Assembly (NCBI GenBank): GCA_027415345.1
Contig: DAIBTC010000001.1
Coordinates: 12,555 to 76,554 of the forward strand
Reading direction: 5' to 3'
Origin: Nitrospirota bacterium
Lineage (GTDB): Bacteria > Nitrospirota > Leptospirillia > Leptospirillales > Leptospirillaceae
Length of the DNA: 64,000 nt
Part shown: positions 46,535-55,686 of the stretch, in pieces
Layout of the letters: each line of letters begins with the position of its first letter
How positions within the stretch are numbered: position 1 is the stretch's first letter
Program-made: the position numbers and the translations under genes
The notes under the pieces: model-generated
Seen by the model: only the letters and a program-made list of their open reading frames with translations
Databases searched by the model: none
What the model was told of the DNA's origin: nothing

Positions 46535-47502
46535 ATGAATATCCTGTTGCTCTATACCGCCATTCCCCATACCACAGGCCAATATCTTGAAAGGGCCCTA
46601 AGGGAGGTCTCCTCTGTCCGCACCTGTGGACCCACCATTTCGGAAGGGGCCCTGAGGGCCTGGGACCTGGCCGCGATCGCCGACCGGGTCCGGCCTCACG
46701 ATTTTCCCTGTCCGGCCGTTTCGGCCAGGGAGGTCCGCCACGGGCTTCCGGATTTTTCTCCCGACTGGATTCTTTTCGTGGAAAGCGGCGTCTGGTTCGA
46801 AATGCCGCTTCTTGATGAAATGGCCGTCCCAAAGGCCTGCTACCTGATCGACACACACCTTCGCCCGCGGATCATCTCCAGATTGCCAGCCGCTTCGACG
46901 TCGTTTTTCTGGCTCAGAAGGCCTATGTCGAGGTCTTCCGGGAACGACTTTCCCGGCCTGTCTACTGGCTTCCACTGGCGGCCGACCAAAAGGTCCACCG
47001 CCCATGGCCGGTTCAGGAGACATTTGATCTCGGGATCTGTTCCTCCCTCTCGCCGGTTCCGGACCGAAGGTCCCGCCGTCTCGCCCGCCTCGGAATTCAC
47101 TTCTCCATCGGGAGGAAGAGGGCGTTTCTGGAGGAGATGTCGAAGTTTCTGTCAGGGGCCAGGGTCCTTTTCAATTCAGCGGTCAAGGATGACCTGAACA
47201 TGAGGGTTTTTGAAAGCATGGCCATAGGAAAATGTCTTCTGACCGATCCGGTCCCCGGCCTTTCCGACCTATTCATCCCTGATGTCGATCTCGTTTTATA
47301 CGATGACAGCGATCTTGTCGACAAGGCCCGATTTCTCATCGACCATCCGGAGGTTCGCGAAAAGATTGCCGCCTCGGGAAGAAAGAAGACTCTGGCCCGC
47401 CATACCTATCGTCATCGCGCCCGGTCCGTGGTCCGCATCCTGGCAGAGAGACCTGGATTTCAGAGAAAAGGAGAAGAACATGTTGCGTATTCTTACGTTT
47501 AA
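46535..47502 (+). pseudogene. CgeB-like (DUF3880/Glyco_trans_1_2-type) glycosyltransferase with an apparent frameshift near 46819-46870
   Basis: N-terminal part in frame 2 (..KACYLIDTH). The family-like sequence continues in frame 1 (ADHLQIASRFDVVFLAQKAYVEVF...YWLPLAADQ...MSKFLSGARVLFNSAVKDDLNMRVFESMAIGKCLLTD...) to stop 47502. The listed ORFs 46535..47197 and 47137..47502 are its two pieces. Confidence 0.6.
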
Positions 47503-49348
47503 CTGGCACGAAGGGTACCTTTCTCTTCTGGGAAAACTTCCTTTTGCCTTCGACATCGTGGAACGGAAAAAGGGGGGATATGAGCGCTGGATGCACGAAT
47601 TCCGCCCATGCCCGCGGGGCTCTCGCATCATTGATGCCGAAGAGGCGATGACGCTCCTCGCACGTGAGGAATACGATGCGGTGGTCTGCCATGATGTCAG
47701 TGACCTTGTCATGACACAGCGGTCCCCCATTCCTCAGTTCCTGGTCTTTCACAATCGCCTCGATACGATGATCGCTCTCGGCCAGAACCGGGTGGAGGCC
47801 CAGGAATATCTGGAGAGCCTGAAAACTCTCATGGGAACAGTGTCCGATCTGACGACGGTCTTTATTTCTCCGGCAAAAAAGGAATCGTGGGGCCTGTCGG
47901 GCCCTGTCATCCTCCCTGGGATCGATCCCAGGGAGTGGGGAGGGTATGACGGGACCCTGGAGAAGGTCCTCAGGATCGGCAACTTTTTCGAAGAGAGAGA
48001 CCTCATGCTCGGGGCAAAACTTTCGTCACGCGTCCTCGAAGGGATTTCCCATACCACTTTGGGCCTCAATCCGAGGATTCCGGGGGCTCGTCCCAGCCGC
48101 AATGTCGAGGACCTGAAGGAACAGATGCGCCAGCACCGTCTCCTTCTCCATACGACGGTCGAGCCTTGGGAAGACGGGTACAATCTCTCCCTTCTCGAGG
48201 CGATGGCCACGGGCATGCCGGTTGTGGCTCTGGCCCATCCGGGCTCTCCTGTGGAGAATGGCATAAGCGGATTCCTCTCCGACAACGAGGAGGGGTTGAG
48301 ACGGTCGGTTGAATGCCTCCTCTCCGATCGGGACATGGCGCTCGAGATGGGACAAAAGGGCCGGGAGACCGTTGTGCAAAGATTTCCCGTCGACCGTTTT
48401 CTTGAGGAATGGGAAGGGCTGATCAACCGGAAGGTGGCCCTCTGGAAACCGAAGCAGAGCTATCGCAGGGAGCGGGGAGAGGTAATCGACCGCATCCCTG
48501 CCGGGGCCAACCGGATCCTGGATATCGGATGCGGGACGGGAGCCATGGGTCGGGGGATCCGGACCCGCTGGGGAGAGGTCACCCTGGTGGGGATCGAGAA
48601 GGATCCCTCCCGGGCCTTCGAGGCCCGGGCCTTCTATGACCGGGTCATTGAGGCCGATGCCGTCACCTGGAAGCCCGATTTCGCCCCTGAGAGCTTTGAT
48701 GCCATCATCCTGGCCGACGTCGTGGAACATGTCGAGAATCCGGCCACTCTTCTCAGACGTTATGTCCCCTTTCTTTCTTCGAACGGGGTCATGGTTCTGT
48801 CCGTTCCCAACATCCGGTACCACGAGGTCCTGGCGGGGCTGGCCCAGGGACGGTTCGATTACCAGGAACAGGGGATCCTCGACCGGTCTCACCTCCGGTT
48901 CTTCACCCGGAAAACCCTTGTCGAACTTCTGGAATCCGCCGGGCTCCAGGTGGAAACGATCGCGGCCAATGTCTCTTCGGAATATGGACGGATGGCGGAG
49001 GAACTGGCGGGACAATCGAATTCCCGGATCGATATTGATCTCGGACCGATCGTTTTAAAGAAGCAGTCCCCCGATGAGATCAGGGATCTTTTCGTCATGC
49101 AGTTTTTAGTGACCGCCCGGAGGAAGGTCTACGGGATCATCGAAAAGGTCGACGATCTCATGGGTTCGGGGCTTACGGAGGGGATTCGCGAGATCCTGGG
49201 GGAGGCGCTGGCCGACCCGACCCTGACATTTGCCGAAAGGGGAGAGGCAGAGATCAAGCTTGGAGAGGTTCTCTCGAGATCGGGAGACCTCGACGGGGCT
49301 CTCGAAGCCTTCGCCCGGGCCGCCACCCTGGTGTCATTCAGCTTCTGA
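47480..49348 (+). CDS. fusion protein: GT4/GT1-type glycosyltransferase + class I SAM methyltransferase + TPR tail
   Basis: GT1 C-domain EPWEDGYNLSLLEAMATGMPVVA...GFL; methyltransferase motif I ILDIGCGTGAMG and DVVEHVENP; TPR-like tail. ATG 47480 follows GGAGAAG; the listed 47282 start overlaps the previous gene. Confidence 0.75.
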   Translation: MLRILTFNWHEGYLSLLGKLPFAFDIVERKKGGYERWMHEFRPCPRGSRIIDAEEAMTLLAREEYDAVVCHDVSDLVMTQRSPIPQFLVFHNRLDTMIALGQNRVEAQEYLESLKTLMGTVSDLTTVFISPAKKESWGLSGPVILPGIDPREWGGYDGTLEKVLRIGNFFEERDLMLGAKLSSRVLEGISHTTLGLNPRIPGARPSRNVEDLKEQMRQHRLLLHTTVEPWEDGYNLSLLEAMATGMPVVALAHPGSPVENGISGFLSDNEEGLRRSVECLLSDRDMALEMGQKGRETVVQRFPVDRFLEEWEGLINRKVALWKPKQSYRRERGEVIDRIPAGANRILDIGCGTGAMGRGIRTRWGEVTLVGIEKDPSRAFEARAFYDRVIEADAVTWKPDFAPESFDAIILADVVEHVENPATLLRRYVPFLSSNGVMVLSVPNIRYHEVLAGLAQGRFDYQEQGILDRSHLRFFTRKTLVELLESAGLQVETIAANVSSEYGRMAEELAGQSNSRIDIDLGPIVLKKQSPDEIRDLFVMQFLVTARRKVYGIIEKVDDLMGSGLTEGIREILGEALADPTLTFAERGEAEIKLGEVLSRSGDLDGALEAFARAATLVSFSF

Positions 49349-49434
49349 AAGGAAATTTCCATGAGTCCCTTCTGGACTTTAAAAGGGCCCATGAAAAAAA
49401 TCCCAGAGCCTACGGGGCCCTGGCGGGATTCGGC

Positions 49435-54955: not shown

Positions 54956-54978
54956 GGCCGGGACAGGTCAGGGCCGCC

Positions 54979-55686
54979 ATGGCCAATTTCGAGGAGGAAG
55001 AGATGGAGACACGGGAAGCTGGCATGAAGCAGGAAATTTTTCTGGATGGGGAAAGCGTCGACCTAAACAGGGCGGAGGGAGAATCCTGGGTTCATGCCCT
55101 GGACAGGCTTCTTTTAAAGATTCCCGGCGGGAGGACACTTTCGGGGGTTCTTTTGAATGGGATGGCCGCGGGAAGACCTGAAATCGAAAAACTCGGAACG
55201 GGGGACCCCTTTCTCCTGGAGATTCGGACAGAATCGCTGGAGGTTCTCCTGAAGGAGGTGCTGACGGACCTTGTGGCCCATCTGGACAGTCTTATGGTGG
55301 TTTTTCAGGAAATCGGGAGCAACTTGCGGCGAGGGAATCTCCAGGCGGTCTTTGCTCCCCGGGACAAGAACCAGCCCGATGGGGGAGTCTACATGCAGGG
55401 TCTTGAAGGCATGGTCGCAGCCCAGGTTCTGGTGGAGGAAATCGGGCGCATCGAGACGCAATCGGGCCACGACAGTTTCCGGGTCTCTTTCATCGAGGAG
55501 ACTGACCGGATCGAATCCCTGCTTGGGGGAATGCTCAAGGCTCAGGAATCCCAGGACTGGATCCTCCTCGCCGACCTGGTTGAGTACGAGATCCTTCCTG
55601 TCCTGCAACGCGGAAGGGTGAAAACCTCCCGGGCCCTGGGGATTGTTCTCGAGGCCTGGCGAAAGGGAAACCTGGTCGTGGCCTGA
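54979..55686 (+). CDS. hypothetical protein, last gene of the island
   Basis: Clean ORF with protein-like composition. Start could be ATG 54979 or 55024 (the listed 54718 start overlaps the GT9 gene). No family recognised. Confidence 0.5.
   Translation: MANFEEEEMETREAGMKQEIFLDGESVDLNRAEGESWVHALDRLLLKIPGGRTLSGVLLNGMAAGRPEIEKLGTGDPFLLEIRTESLEVLLKEVLTDLVAHLDSLMVVFQEIGSNLRRGNLQAVFAPRDKNQPDGGVYMQGLEGMVAAQVLVEEIGRIETQSGHDSFRVSFIEETDRIESLLGGMLKAQESQDWILLADLVEYEILPVLQRGRVKTSRALGIVLEAWRKGNLVVA

What the first reader, a model, noticed from the sequence alone, without database searches (positions are those of the whole stretch)
46535..55686. Atypical putative flagellin-modification island: two GT9-like, two CgeB-like and one GT-methyltransferase-TPR fusion, with no nonulosonic-acid genes
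Directly downstream of fliD-fliS sit six tightly packed genes. They are a CgeB-like GT, a GT1 + SAM-methyltransferase + TPR fusion, a GT9 heptosyltransferase-like protein with an approx. 190-aa extension, a CgeB-like GT with an N-terminal module resembling Maf (motility accessory factor) proteins, a second GT9-like protein with a long extension, and an unknown 235-aa protein. Well-studied flagellin glycosylation islands (Campylobacter, Helicobacter, Aeromonas, Clostridioides) centre on pse/leg biosynthesis plus Maf/DUF115 transferases, or on single GT2 enzymes. A GT9-based set with methyltransferase activity has not, to my knowledge, been characterised. The two flagellins here are short (286 and 275 aa), so their exposed central segments are the only obvious targets. 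Both GT9 paralogs share the same layout: GT9 core, a four-Cys cluster, and a helical extension.
Basis: partly seen in the sequence, partly recalled or inferred. Interest (0 to 1): 0.65.

Follow-up and report, generated by a model that had tools for sequence, protein, structure and literature searches.

The report
Flagellar-locus glycosyltransferase island without sialic-acid genes
At the end of a Leptospirillum-like flagellar gene cluster lies a conserved six-gene set of soluble sugar-transferring enzymes that shares its promoter type and upstream control site with flagellar rod genes and recurs beside flagellin or motor genes in several phyla, so it is most likely an uncharacterised way of decorating the flagellar filament with sugars, though two of its genes are broken in this sequence.

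Summary
The six genes are at the stated coordinates with the stated domains. However, gene 1 (CgeB-like) has a 1-bp deletion and gene 2 (GT + methyltransferase + TPR) a 31-bp deletion. Both shift the frame, and both are absent from a 99.6%-identical genome and six further relatives.

The window is a Leptospirillia (Nitrospirota) flagellar supercluster. The island follows flaB-fliD-fliS-orf128.

Evidence for a flagellar role:
- Gene order is conserved across Leptospirillum-like genomes down to about 40% identity.
- The ordered trio (Maf-N + CgeB-type GT, long GT9, DUF8042) recurs in Thermodesulfovibrionia, a Caldithrix abyssi-labelled MAG (between flgL and flagellin), Desulfuromonadales and others, often beside flagellin/fliD/fliS or motAB/PilZ.
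- The island has a conserved sigma-54 promoter. A 20-nt upstream element is identical to, and spaced the same as, the one before flgFG.
- All products are soluble, and the window has no nonulosonic-acid or export genes.

The GT9s are WaaC/WaaF-like, not TibC-like. They carry a conserved four-Cys knuckle and a helical extension with no known relatives.

Best reading: a cytoplasmic, nonulosonic-acid-free glycosylation system for flagellin (confidence about 0.55-0.6). The acceptor, sugars and activity are untested. It is a new variant of a known kind.

The parts
46368..46387 (+). Conserved upstream element CTGACAGGGAAAGAAAATCC, about 130 bp upstream of the sigma-54 promoter. Candidate activator site.
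   Evidence: A related sequence sits at the same place upstream of gene 1 in L009, L018, L019-L022.
46405..46424 (+). Enhancer-like inverted repeat AGGAATAATATTCCTGTCCA, starting 91 bp upstream of the sigma-54 promoter.
   Evidence: The pattern AGGAAT-N4-TTCCTGTCCA has only two perfect matches in the window, at 33223 and 46405. Each starts exactly 91 bp before a TGGCAT-N6-TGC element. The inverted repeat is kept in L015, L009 and L018. A related element lies upstream of the flgB promoter.
46496..46510 (+). Sigma-54-type -24/-12 promoter TGGCATAAAAAATGC, about 25 bp before the gene 1 ribosome-binding site.
   Evidence: A GG-N10-GC element is found upstream of gene 1 in all 14 related loci despite divergent flanks. 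The window has 6 matches to TGGYAY-N6-TGC against 0.52 expected. The others lie before flgB, fliL and flgF.
46535..47502 (+). Gene 1: CgeB-like GT-B glycosyltransferase (322 aa when intact). Frameshifted here by a 1-bp deletion near 46861.
   Evidence: Pfam Glyco_trans_1_2, E = 1.7e-27. The frameshift is shown by three-frame translation and by comparison with L008.
47480..49785 (+). Gene 2: GT4-like glycosyltransferase (about 47480-48440) + SAM methyltransferase (about 48480-48970) + TPR domain (about 49240-49785). It is 778 aa when intact. A 31-bp deletion at about 49333 interrupts it here, so the TPR part is out of frame.
   Evidence: Pfam hits. The deletion was mapped against L008 and six other relatives. 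In Thermodesulfovibrionia loci the GT and MT parts are separate genes.
49787..51364 (+). Gene 3: long GT9 paralogue (525 aa) with a CxxC-x7-C-x4-C cluster and a C-terminal extension of about 200 aa.
   Evidence: Pfam PF01075, E = 7e-17. It aligns with gene 5's family, including the Cys cluster. It is 27% identical to gene 5.
51351..53153 (+). Gene 4: Maf-N-terminal-like domain (residues 1 to about 175) fused to a CgeB/GT4-like GT-B domain (about 180-525) and a helical tail.
   Evidence: Pfam Maf_flag10_N, DUF3880 and Glyco_trans_1_2. The family profile's best PDB sequence hit is Maf 5MU5, E = 0.004. The AlphaFold model has pLDDT 88. Foldseek matches retaining GT4 enzymes.
53150..54955 (+). Gene 5: long GT9 (601 aa). 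GT-B core at residues 20-335, four-Cys knuckle at 338-352, then a beta-hairpin and a long-helix domain at about 395-582.
   Evidence: Pfam PF01075. The AlphaFold model has pLDDT 84.7 and pTM 0.85. Foldseek ranks WaaF/WaaC/3TOV best and TibC lower. The extension has no Pfam or PDB relatives.
54952..55686 (+). Gene 6: DUF8042 protein (start at 54952, 54979 or 55003) with an invariant C-terminal motif QE.QDWILLADLVEYE..P. Candidate partner or specificity factor of the long GT9.
   Evidence: Precomputed Pfam PF26154. Alignment A4. It lies downstream of a long GT9 in most surveyed loci. The family has 476 representatives, almost all stand-alone proteins of 190-235 aa.
45898..46284 (+). Conserved 128-aa ORF between fliS and the island. 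No family match.
   Evidence: Called in L008/L009, with 50-58% identity across the closer Leptospirillum-like lineages. A 114-118-aa ORF occupies the same position in the distant clade, but tblastn detects no similarity there. No Pfam or NCBIfam hit.
42973..43800 (+). Flagellin FlaB (275 aa), a presumed acceptor. A sigma-28-like promoter lies at 42851.
   Evidence: Pfam Flagellin_N/C. Start codon. Promoter.
37667..38527 (+). Flagellin FlaA (286 aa), a presumed acceptor.
   Evidence: Pfam Flagellin_N/C. Start codon and ribosome-binding site.
2021..3421 (+). Sigma-54-dependent response regulator (receiver + AAA+ + HTH_8), paired with the histidine kinase at 774-2024. Candidate activator of the island's promoter.
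   Evidence: Pfam. The link to the island is inferred from the shared promoter and upstream-element type only.

Best explanation
The island encodes a cytoplasmic, nonulosonic-acid-independent protein O-glycosylation system that belongs to the flagellar regulon. Its most likely job is to decorate the two short flagellins before export.

**Inferred mechanism**
1. A sigma-54 promoter with an upstream activator site of the same type and spacing as the flgFG and flgB operons switches the island on with the hook-basal-body genes, before the sigma-28-driven flaB.
2. Five soluble GT domains build a short neutral oligosaccharide on Ser/Thr of the exposed central segment of FlaA/FlaB. Three are GT4/CgeB-like and presumably retaining. 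Two are GT9, WaaC/WaaF-like and presumably inverting, perhaps using ADP-heptose or a related donor.
3. The methyltransferase domain of gene 2 O-methylates a sugar.
4. Accessory modules, not the catalytic domains, are proposed to supply acceptor recognition. These are the TPR domain of gene 2 (as in FlmG and Maf-1), the Maf-type N-terminal domain of gene 4, the helical extensions of the two GT9s, and the cis-encoded DUF8042 protein (by analogy with the GlfM adaptor of Maf-2).
5. The four-Cys cluster of the GT9s is probably a structural metal knuckle.

**Shown here:** gene content, domain folds, conservation, synteny, shared cis-elements, absence of membrane and export components.

**Inferred:** the acceptor, the sugars, the order of action, the adaptor roles, and metal binding.

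In this particular sequence genes 1 and 2 are frameshifted, so the pathway may be impaired in this strain, or the assembly may be wrong.
For: **Synteny within the clade**
- flagellin-fliD-fliS-short ORF-g1-g2-g3-g4-g5-g6 is kept in every Leptospirillum-like locus long enough to show it, down to 37-53% protein identity.

**Synteny across phyla**
- The g4 + long GT9 pair is adjacent in 30 loci outside that clade. Twelve of these have flagellin/fliD/fliS/flgKL within 10 kb, against 2 of 40 GT9 loci without the pair (Fisher p = 5e-4, not corrected for phylogeny).
- In a Caldithrix abyssi-labelled MAG the module sits between flgL and flagellin.
- In two JGI loci the trio g4-GT9-DUF8042 is followed by a response regulator, PilZ and motAB.
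- In other loci a related short-CgeB + long-GT9 pair lies inside classical Maf/NeuB/PseB/PseC loci.

**Regulation**
- A conserved sigma-54 promoter and an identical 16-specified-base element at the identical 91-bp offset before both flgF and the island.
- A sigma-54 response regulator and kinase head the cluster.

**Protein features**
- Maf_flag10_N domain in g4.
- TPR fused to a GT, as in characterised flagellin glycosyltransferases (PMC7591256; bioRxiv 10.1101/2023.12.03.569772).
- No transmembrane segments or signal peptides in any product.
- No flippase, polymerase or priming transferase in the island, and no Kdo or lipid A genes.
- GT9 motifs (GD, KRWP, SNDTG.MH.AAA) are conserved.

**Rosetta-stone evidence**
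- The GT and MT parts of gene 2 are separate neighbouring genes in Thermodesulfovibrionia loci that have the g4-g5 pair.
Against: - No direct evidence that Leptospirillum flagellin is glycosylated. No paper in the searched library addresses these genes.
- In Desulfovibrionaceae the long GT9 + DUF8042 pair has no flagellar structural genes within 10 kb. The one locus annotated in detail shows only a PilZ protein nearby.
- 18 of the 30 pair loci show no flagellar gene within the 10-kb flanks.
- Association with PilZ and motAB rather than flagellin in some loci leaves other motility-related acceptors open.
- No sugar-nucleotide biosynthesis genes lie in the island, so the donors are unknown.
- The Maf-N similarity is short (about 50 residues, a GxGxG-type motif).
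- Two genes are disrupted in this window.
- The shared regulatory elements are sequence inferences, not mapped promoters.
Confidence: 0.57

Rival explanations
1. The enzymes glycosylate a different component of the motility apparatus or cell surface, not flagellin. Candidates are the FliD cap, hook proteins, a stator- or PilZ-associated factor, or the large variable proteins encoded just downstream. They would still be under flagellar-regulon control.
For: - In L095/L096 the core trio is next to a response regulator, PilZ and motAB rather than flagellin.
- Desulfovibrio L066 has a PilZ neighbour and no flagellin nearby.
- Large Pfam-less ORFs follow the island in this window. One has a weak haemagglutinin-type N-terminal hit, below the curated cut-off.
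Against: - Where structural genes are adjacent, they are the flagellin/fliD/fliS/flgKL late genes.
- The downstream large ORFs are not conserved with the island in the distant Leptospirillum clade.
- Every characterised cytoplasmic glycosylation system encoded in a flagellar locus that I know of targets flagellin (established knowledge; PMC7591256).
Confidence: 0.2
2. The GT9 genes are LPS inner-core heptosyltransferases and the other GTs are envelope-polysaccharide enzymes that merely lie next to the flagellar cluster.
For: - The best sequence and fold matches of both GT9 cores are WaaF and WaaC.
- GT9 is known almost entirely from LPS biosynthesis.
Against: - All NCBIfam heptosyltransferase scores are far below the curated cut-offs.
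- Both GT9s carry extensions of 200-250 aa and a Cys cluster that are absent from the WaaC/WaaF/3TOV matches (348-349 aa).
- A true LPS-type locus found in the same search (L007: Kdo transferase, LpxK, KdsA/B, LptC) looks entirely different.
- No lipid A, Kdo or O-antigen export genes are in the island.
- Flagellar synteny is conserved across phyla, and the promoter is of the flagellar type.
Confidence: 0.07
3. In this particular genome the island is a decaying remnant. Genes 1 and 2 are pseudogenes, so the pathway is inactive or reduced whatever its ancestral role.
For: - There are two frame-disrupting indels in the 15 kb compared with a 99.6%-identical genome. Both lie inside the island and both are unique among eight relatives.
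- The 31-bp deletion has short flanking microhomology.
- Contigs from other assemblies break inside the island, which suggests population heterogeneity here.
Against: - This is a metagenome-type assembly, and I could not find an independent assembly covering these positions.
- The 1-bp deletion sits in a patch of clustered mismatches typical of strain-mixing artefacts.
- Genes 3-6 are intact.
Confidence: 0.35
4. The island makes a soluble cytoplasmic methylated oligo- or polysaccharide unrelated to protein glycosylation, for example one like the mycobacterial methylmannose polysaccharides.
For: - The top Foldseek hit of gene 4 is the methylmannose-polysaccharide mannosyltransferase 7QSG.
- A methyltransferase is fused to a GT.
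- All enzymes are soluble.
Against: - The 7QSG match is a generic GT4-fold similarity. TreT, MshA and BshA score similarly.
- This reading does not explain the Maf-N domain, the TPR domain, the flagellar synteny or the shared flagellar promoter architecture.
Confidence: 0.04

Closest known systems
Maf (motility accessory factor) flagellin nonulosonic-acid transferases (Campylobacter, Helicobacter, Magnetospirillum 5MU5, Shewanella Maf-1/Maf-2 with GlfM)
   Same: - Encoded in flagellar loci, soluble, and acting in the cytoplasm.
- Gene 4 carries the Maf N-terminal domain (Pfam PF20157; best PDB sequence hit 5MU5).
- Both use accessory flagellin-binding modules: a TPR domain, or a small cis-encoded helical protein.
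   Different: - There is no MAF_flag10/DUF115 catalytic domain. The Maf-N domain is instead fused to a GT-B (CgeB/GT4-like) domain.
- The window has no Pse/Leg/Neu biosynthesis genes.
- DUF8042 (about 200-240 aa) was not compared with GlfM (89 aa), and no similarity is known.
FlmG (Caulobacter) and other TPR-bearing flagellin glycosyltransferases (GmaR, Maf-1)
   Same: - A glycosyltransferase domain and a TPR domain sit on one polypeptide (gene 2 in intact relatives).
- The gene is encoded with flagellar genes.
- The flagellins are short, about 275 aa.
   Different: - The domain order is GT-MT-TPR, whereas FlmG is TPR-GT.
- There is an extra methyltransferase domain.
- The donor is not pseudaminic acid.
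- No sequence comparison with FlmG was run.
LPS heptosyltransferases WaaC/WaaF (CAZy GT9; PDB 2H1H, 1PSW)
   Same: - Same GT-B fold, with Foldseek target TM-scores of about 0.6-0.73.
- Same conserved motifs: the N-terminal GD, KRWP, and (S/G)ND(T/S)G.MH.AAA.
   Different: - 525-601 aa against about 320-350 aa.
- An added four-Cys knuckle and a helical C-terminal domain.
- No LPS genes nearby, and flagellar synteny and regulation instead.
- Scores are far below the curated family cut-offs.
TibC/AAH bacterial autotransporter heptosyltransferases (BAHT; PDB 4RAP/4RB4)
   Same: - A GT9-like enzyme that glycosylates a protein in the cytoplasm.
- A four-Cys metal 'finger' inserted at the end of the C-lobe. 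In TibC this is Cys339/342/358/370, needed for oligomerisation and substrate handling (PMC4358343).
- This is a precedent that heptosyltransferase-type enzymes can act on proteins.
   Different: - phmmer does not find TibC.
- The fold match is weaker than to WaaC/WaaF (target TM-score about 0.5).
- The model shows an ordinary Rossmann N-lobe, not TibC's N-terminal beta-barrel.
- The Cys spacing differs: CxxC-x5/7-C-x4-C here.
- No autotransporter partner gene was recognised next to the island.
[quoted passage not shown] 2020, PMC6993521)
   Same: GT9-family genes sit inside predicted flagellin-glycosylation regions of flagellar loci, and they too are uncharacterised.
   Different: - A different phylum and a different gene set.
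- No CgeB, DUF8042 or methyltransferase-TPR partners are reported there.
- The sequence relationship to the long GT9s here was not tested.
CgeB (Bacillus subtilis spore-crust maturation protein; Pfam Glyco_trans_1_2 / DUF3880)
   Same: Genes 1 and 4 match the same Pfam families, and public databases name their homologues 'CgeB family protein'.
   Different: - The organism is not known as a spore-former (my own knowledge, not tested here), and the genes sit in a flagellar cluster, not a sporulation locus.
- Gene 4 has an extra Maf-N domain.
- As far as I know, CgeB's own biochemistry is also unresolved.

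Membership tests
CAZy GT9 / Pfam Glyco_transf_9 | Significant match to the family model | tested here: met
   PF01075: gene 3 scores 62 bits and gene 5 scores 77 bits, against a cut-off of 22.
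CAZy GT9 / Pfam Glyco_transf_9 | GT-B fold closest to the WaaC/WaaF structures | tested here: met
   For gene 5, Foldseek's top hits are 1PSW, 6DFE, 2H1H, 3TOV and 2GT1, with E about 1e-12 and target TM-scores of 0.6-0.73.
CAZy GT9 / Pfam Glyco_transf_9 | Conserved N-terminal Asp (GD motif) and the KRWP and NDTG.MH.AAA donor-site motifs | tested here: met
   G31, D32, R218, S293, D295, T296, H300, A302 and A303 are invariant; W219, N294 and G297 are at least 90% conserved. These positions align with 1PSW and 3TOV. The assignment of catalytic roles comes from established knowledge of WaaC.
LPS core heptosyltransferase (WaaC/WaaF/WaaQ equivalogs) | Score above the curated equivalog cut-off | tested here: not met
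   Best NCBIfam scores are 68 bits (gene 5) and 41 bits (gene 3), against cut-offs of 135-569.
LPS core heptosyltransferase (WaaC/WaaF/WaaQ equivalogs) | Genomic context of Kdo, lipid A or core genes | tested here: not met
   None in the island or the window. Contrast the LPS-type locus L007.
LPS core heptosyltransferase (WaaC/WaaF/WaaQ equivalogs) | Transfers heptose from ADP-heptose | not testable with these tools
   Needs an enzyme assay. The rest of the genome was not available to check for an ADP-heptose pathway.
BAHT (TibC/AAH protein heptosyltransferases) | Sequence or fold closest to TibC, with its N-terminal beta-barrel | tested here: not met
   phmmer against PDB does not retrieve 4RAP/4RB4. 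Foldseek ranks TibC 14th or lower, with a target TM-score of about 0.5. The model's N-lobe is alternating strand and helix.
BAHT (TibC/AAH protein heptosyltransferases) | Four-Cys iron finger inserted in the C-lobe | tested here: inconclusive
   Four conserved Cys lie at the equivalent place, the end of the C-lobe. The spacing differs from TibC's 339/342/358/370, and no metal was tested.
BAHT (TibC/AAH protein heptosyltransferases) | Adjacent autotransporter substrate gene | tested here: not met
   No autotransporter family was recognised in the neighbouring genes.
Maf flagellin glycosyltransferases | Maf_flag10_N N-terminal domain | tested here: met
   Gene 4: PF20157 scores 30.4 bits against a cut-off of 23.5. 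The domain is precomputed in many of the homologues listed. The family profile hits 5MU5 at E = 0.004.
Maf flagellin glycosyltransferases | MAF_flag10 / DUF115 (MptE-like) catalytic domain | tested here: not met
   No such hit in any island protein. tblastn with a full Maf sequence finds nothing in the window.
Maf flagellin glycosylation islands | Linked nonulosonic-acid (pse/leg/neu) biosynthesis genes | tested here: not met
   No NeuB, PseB or PseC homologue in the 64-kb window. The rest of the genome was not seen.
Flagellin glycosylation island (operational definition) | Glycosyltransferase genes adjacent to flagellin/fliD/fliS, with synteny conserved across taxa | tested here: met
Flagellin glycosylation island (operational definition) | Co-regulation with flagellar genes | tested here: met
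   This is an in-silico result only. It rests on a conserved sigma-54 promoter and on an upstream element identical in sequence and spacing to that of the flgF operon. No expression data were available.
Flagellin glycosylation island (operational definition) | Flagellin carries an island-dependent glycan | not testable with these tools
   Needs mass spectrometry and mutants.
FlmG-type TPR glycosyltransferases | TPR and GT-B domains on one polypeptide | tested here: met
   Met in the intact homologues of gene 2 (L008, 778 aa), with the opposite domain order. The polypeptide is interrupted in the window itself.
FlmG-type TPR glycosyltransferases | Sequence homology to FlmG, and TPR binding of flagellin | not tested
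   No FlmG sequence was at hand. Binding needs an experiment.
GlfM-type specificity factors | Small cis-encoded helical-bundle protein that bridges the glycosyltransferase and flagellin | not tested
   DUF8042 is cis-encoded and conserved next to the long GT9. Its fold was not modelled and no GlfM sequence was compared. It has no PDB relative by profile search.

The most novel reading that the evidence does not exclude
The ordered trio of a Maf-N-domain GT-B enzyme, a long GT9 with a Cys4 knuckle and helical domain, and DUF8042 defines a previously unrecognised class of flagellin (or flagellar) glycosyltransferase system. It would be widespread, present in Nitrospirota, Calditrichota, Desulfuromonadales and other deltaproteobacterial-type lineages, and independent of nonulosonic acids. 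In it, a heptosyltransferase-type enzyme has been recruited from LPS chemistry to protein O-glycosylation, DUF8042 and the helical extension act as acceptor-specificity modules, and the Maf N-terminal domain is a portable module shared between two unrelated catalytic folds.
Probability: 0.4. Interest if true: 0.75.

Novelty: new variant of a known kind. Interest (0 to 1): 0.6.

Why it matters
Flagellin glycosylation is understood mainly through Maf or FlmG enzymes that transfer sialic-acid-like sugars, and through a few GT2 enzymes. If this module modifies flagellin, four things follow.

- It would add a third enzymatic solution, GT9 plus CgeB-type GT-B enzymes with their own accessory proteins. 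This solution is common in environmentally important, poorly studied phyla: acid-mine Leptospirillum, Thermodesulfovibrionia and Calditrichota.
- It would give a first functional context to three large 'unknown' families: the Maf-N + CgeB architecture (at least 1450 homologues), the long GT9s, and DUF8042 (476 cluster representatives).
- It would provide a second example, after TibC, of a heptosyltransferase-type enzyme acting on a protein.
- The shared sigma-54 promoter and upstream element offer a simple, testable regulatory link between glycan machinery and basal-body assembly.

It matters less if the acceptor proves to be something else. Even then, the conserved trio and its motility association remain a well-defined target.

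Tried and rejected
1. **TibC/BAHT membership for the four-Cys GT9s.** Rejected. No sequence hit, and a weaker fold match than to WaaC/WaaF.
2. **DUF8042 as a detached copy of the GT9 C-terminal extension.** Rejected. hhalign gives probability 0.2%.
3. **Identifying the GT9 extension or DUF8042 through PDB or Pfam profiles.**
   - The extension hits only designed coiled coils, which is a composition effect.
   - DUF8042 hits nothing in PDB.
   - PF26154 is not in the local Pfam copy.
4. **A sigma-28 promoter in front of the island.** None found. Sigma-28-like sites occur only at 38565 and 42851.
5. **Confirming or dismissing the two frameshifts with independent assemblies of the same strain.** Failed, because those contigs end inside the island.
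6. **Literature.** Searches for CgeB + flagellin, GT9 + flagellin, heptosyltransferase + flagellin glycosylation, Leptospirillum + flagellin + glycosyltransferase, and flagellin glycan + heptose found no study of this system. They yielded only the flag-2 GT9 note and the TibC, FlmG and GlfM analogies. One multi-term search was uninformative.
7. **Whole-model Foldseek of gene 4.** This could not isolate the N-terminal domain, because GT-B hits swamp the list.
8. **Intrinsic-terminator scan.** It gave no clear operon end after gene 6.

Full report
**What is in the window**

The window has about 59% G+C. Its proteins are closest to MAG proteins labelled Nitrospirae/Nitrospiraceae, 'Leptospirillum sp. 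Group IV UBA BS' and Leptospirillia.

From about 0.8 kb to 46 kb it is one flagellar-chemotaxis supercluster on the + strand:
- histidine kinase (774-2024) and sigma-54 response regulator (2021-3421)
- flgB?/flgC/fliE/fliF/fliG/fliI, then fliK/flgD/flgE
- fliL...fliP/fliR/flhB/flhA/flhF/flhG
- cheA and an MCP
- flgF/flgG/flgA/flgH/flgI
- flaA (37667-38527, 286 aa), flgN, flgK, flgL, csrA/fliW
- flaB (42973-43800, 275 aa), fliD, fliS and a conserved 128-aa ORF

The finding's interval, 46535-55686, follows directly.

**Checking the observation**

All six genes and the claimed domains are there.
- Gene 1: Glyco_trans_1_2, i.e. CgeB-like.
- Gene 2: a Glycos_transf_1-type GT, a class-I SAM methyltransferase and TPR repeats.
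- Genes 3 and 5: Glyco_transf_9, 525 and 601 aa.
- Gene 4: Maf_flag10_N + DUF3880 + Glyco_trans_1_2, 600 aa.
- Gene 6: precomputed Pfam DUF8042.

I compared the window with a 99.6%-identical genome (L008, GCA_027334845.1).
- Gene 1 carries a 1-bp deletion near 46861.
- Gene 2 carries a 31-bp deletion at about 49333, which puts the TPR domain out of frame.
- Both indels are unique to the window among eight aligned relatives.
- Intact versions are 322-327 aa and 778-782 aa.

I could not decide between real pseudogenisation and assembly error. The other assemblies of this strain end inside the island.

The absence of nonulosonic-acid genes holds for the whole window.

**The proteins**

*Gene 5.* The model is confident (pLDDT 84.7, pTM 0.85).
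- It has a GT-B core, then a low-confidence loop holding C338/C341/C347/C352, then a beta-hairpin and four to five long helices.
- The core is closest to WaaF, WaaC and 3TOV (target TM-scores 0.6-0.73). TibC is clearly further away, at about 0.5.
- phmmer does not see TibC.
- The GT9 hallmark motifs and the four Cys are conserved in both paralogue families.
- NCBIfam heptosyltransferase scores are far below the cut-offs.
- The extension has no Pfam or PDB relatives apart from composition-driven coiled-coil hits.

*Gene 4.* The model has pLDDT 88.
- It has an N-terminal domain of about 175 residues. The family profile's best PDB sequence hit for this domain is the Magnetospirillum Maf structure 5MU5 (E = 0.004).
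- This is followed by a GT-B domain that resembles retaining GT4 enzymes.

*Gene 6.* It has an invariant motif QE.QDWILLADLVEYE..P that is shared even with a Desulfovibrio homologue. It is unrelated to the GT9 extension.

None of the seven proteins has a transmembrane segment or a signal peptide.

**Synteny**

Within Leptospirillum-like genomes, the order flagellin-fliD-fliS-short ORF-g1-g2-g3-g4-g5-g6 is kept in every locus long enough to show it. This holds down to 37-53% protein identity.

I then scanned one genome per species with a long-GT9 profile, which returned 80 loci, and annotated them by tblastn.
- The g4 + GT9 pair is adjacent in 30 loci outside the Leptospirillum clade.
- Twelve of these have flagellin/fliD/fliS/flgKL within 10 kb, against 2 of 40 loci without the pair (Fisher p = 5e-4, not phylogenetically corrected).

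Examples:
- A Caldithrix abyssi-labelled MAG has flgN-flgK-flgL-GT9-(CgeB-type GT homologous to gene 4)-GT9-GT9-CgeB-DUF8042-orf-flagellin-fliD-fliS-flgM.
- Nitrospirota L044 and L053 have GT9-g4-GT9-flagellin-fliD-fliS.
- Desulfuromonadales L050 and deltaproteobacterial L057 have flagellin-fliD-fliS-DUF8042-g4.
- Two JGI loci have g4-GT9-DUF8042 followed by a response regulator, PilZ and motAB.
- A related short-CgeB + long-GT9 pair sits inside classical Maf/NeuB/PseB/PseC loci.
- The GT and MT parts of gene 2 are separate genes in Thermodesulfovibrionia loci.

By contrast, a true LPS locus recovered in the same search looks entirely different.

A caution: in Desulfovibrionaceae the long GT9 + DUF8042 pair has no flagellar structural genes within 10 kb. 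In the one locus annotated in detail, only a PilZ protein is nearby.

Family sizes:
- Gene 4's architecture has at least 1450 homologues at E <= 1e-10.
- DUF8042 has 476 cluster representatives, almost all stand-alone proteins of 190-235 aa.

**Regulation (new here)**

- About 25 bp before gene 1's ribosome-binding site lies TGGCATAAAAAATGC, a sigma-54 -24/-12 element.
- A GG-N10-GC element is present upstream of gene 1 in all 14 related loci, although the flanking sequence diverges.
- The window has six TGGYAY-N6-TGC matches against 0.52 expected. The others precede flgB, fliL and flgF; one lies inside the kinase gene and one is on the minus strand.
- The 20-nt element AGGAAT-N4-TTCCTGTCCA occurs perfectly only twice, at 33223 and 46405. 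Each copy starts exactly 91 bp upstream of a sigma-54 promoter, that of the flgF operon and that of the island.
- The flgB promoter has a related element at a similar distance.
- Sigma-28-like promoters occur only before the flgN region and flaB.

So, by sequence, the island is wired into the sigma-54 tier of the flagellar hierarchy. Its activator is probably the response regulator at the head of the cluster. This is inference from sequence, not expression data.

**Most likely mechanism**

The best-supported reading is a cytoplasmic flagellar-regulon glycosylation system that builds a short, methylated, nonulosonic-acid-free glycan on FlaA/FlaB before export.

Acceptor recognition would come from accessory modules rather than the catalytic domains:
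- a TPR domain, as shown experimentally for FlmG and Maf-1
- possibly DUF8042 and the helical GT9 extensions, in a role like the GlfM adaptor of Maf-2

TibC shows that a GT9-like enzyme with a Cys4 metal finger can glycosylate proteins. The enzymes here are not TibC family members.

I put about 0.57 on this reading. The rivals:
- about 0.2 on another motility-associated acceptor
- under 0.1 on an LPS or envelope role
- a separate 0.35 that this strain's copy is genuinely degraded

**Comparison with what is known, and novelty**

The kind of system, a flagellin glycosylation island, is known. The enzyme set is not.
- No paper in the searched library deals with CgeB-type or long GT9 enzymes in flagellin modification.
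- The nearest precedent is a bioinformatic note of GT9 genes in enterobacterial flag-2 variable regions.

I therefore rate it a new variant of a known kind, with interest 0.6. It is a coherent, widespread and experimentally tractable module. All functional claims remain inferential.

Noticed in passing
window 42149-42853: csrA and fliW lie in one reading frame with no stop codon between them. csrA has no ATG/GTG/TTG start, because the first canonical start (42224) falls inside it. This may be a CsrA-FliW fusion, or a non-canonical start.
   Followed up: partly
window 55890-58304 and 58372-59670: Two large ORFs (804 and 432 aa) with no Pfam match lie just downstream of the island. The second has a weak, sub-threshold hit to the filamentous-haemagglutinin N-terminal domain. 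Their lengths differ among nearly identical strains (666/480, 783/516 and 666/528 aa), which suggests a hypervariable surface-protein region.
   Followed up: partly
L011-L014 (contigs from other assemblies of the same or near-identical strain): Several independent assemblies break inside genes 4-5 of the island. This hints at strain-level heterogeneity or repeats there.
   Followed up: no
window 774-3421; 3515, 14366, 33314: A histidine kinase and a sigma-54 response regulator (like FlgSR or FlrBC) head the cluster. Sigma-54 promoter elements precede the flgB, fliL and flgF operons. There are 6 matches against 0.52 expected.
   Followed up: yes
window 38565-38592 and 42851-42877: Sigma-28-like promoters (TAAA-N15/16-GCCGATA-like) lie upstream of the flgN region and of flaB. 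None was found upstream of flaA within 390 bp.
   Followed up: partly
window 28636-32542 (minus strand): Three consecutive ORFs (399, 343 and 377 aa) with no Pfam match sit on the opposite strand, inside the flagellar-chemotaxis cluster.
   Followed up: no
L066 10004-12628 (Desulfovibrio sp. PCE-4); L095, L096: Long GT9 + DUF8042 also occurs as a small stand-alone unit next to PilZ-domain proteins, and in L095/L096 next to motAB. This points to a possible link with c-di-GMP or stator control rather than with the filament.
   Followed up: partly
L009 18239-19132: An IS605 OrfB/TnpB (Cas12f-like) gene lies a few kb downstream of the island in a 77%-identical relative.
   Followed up: no
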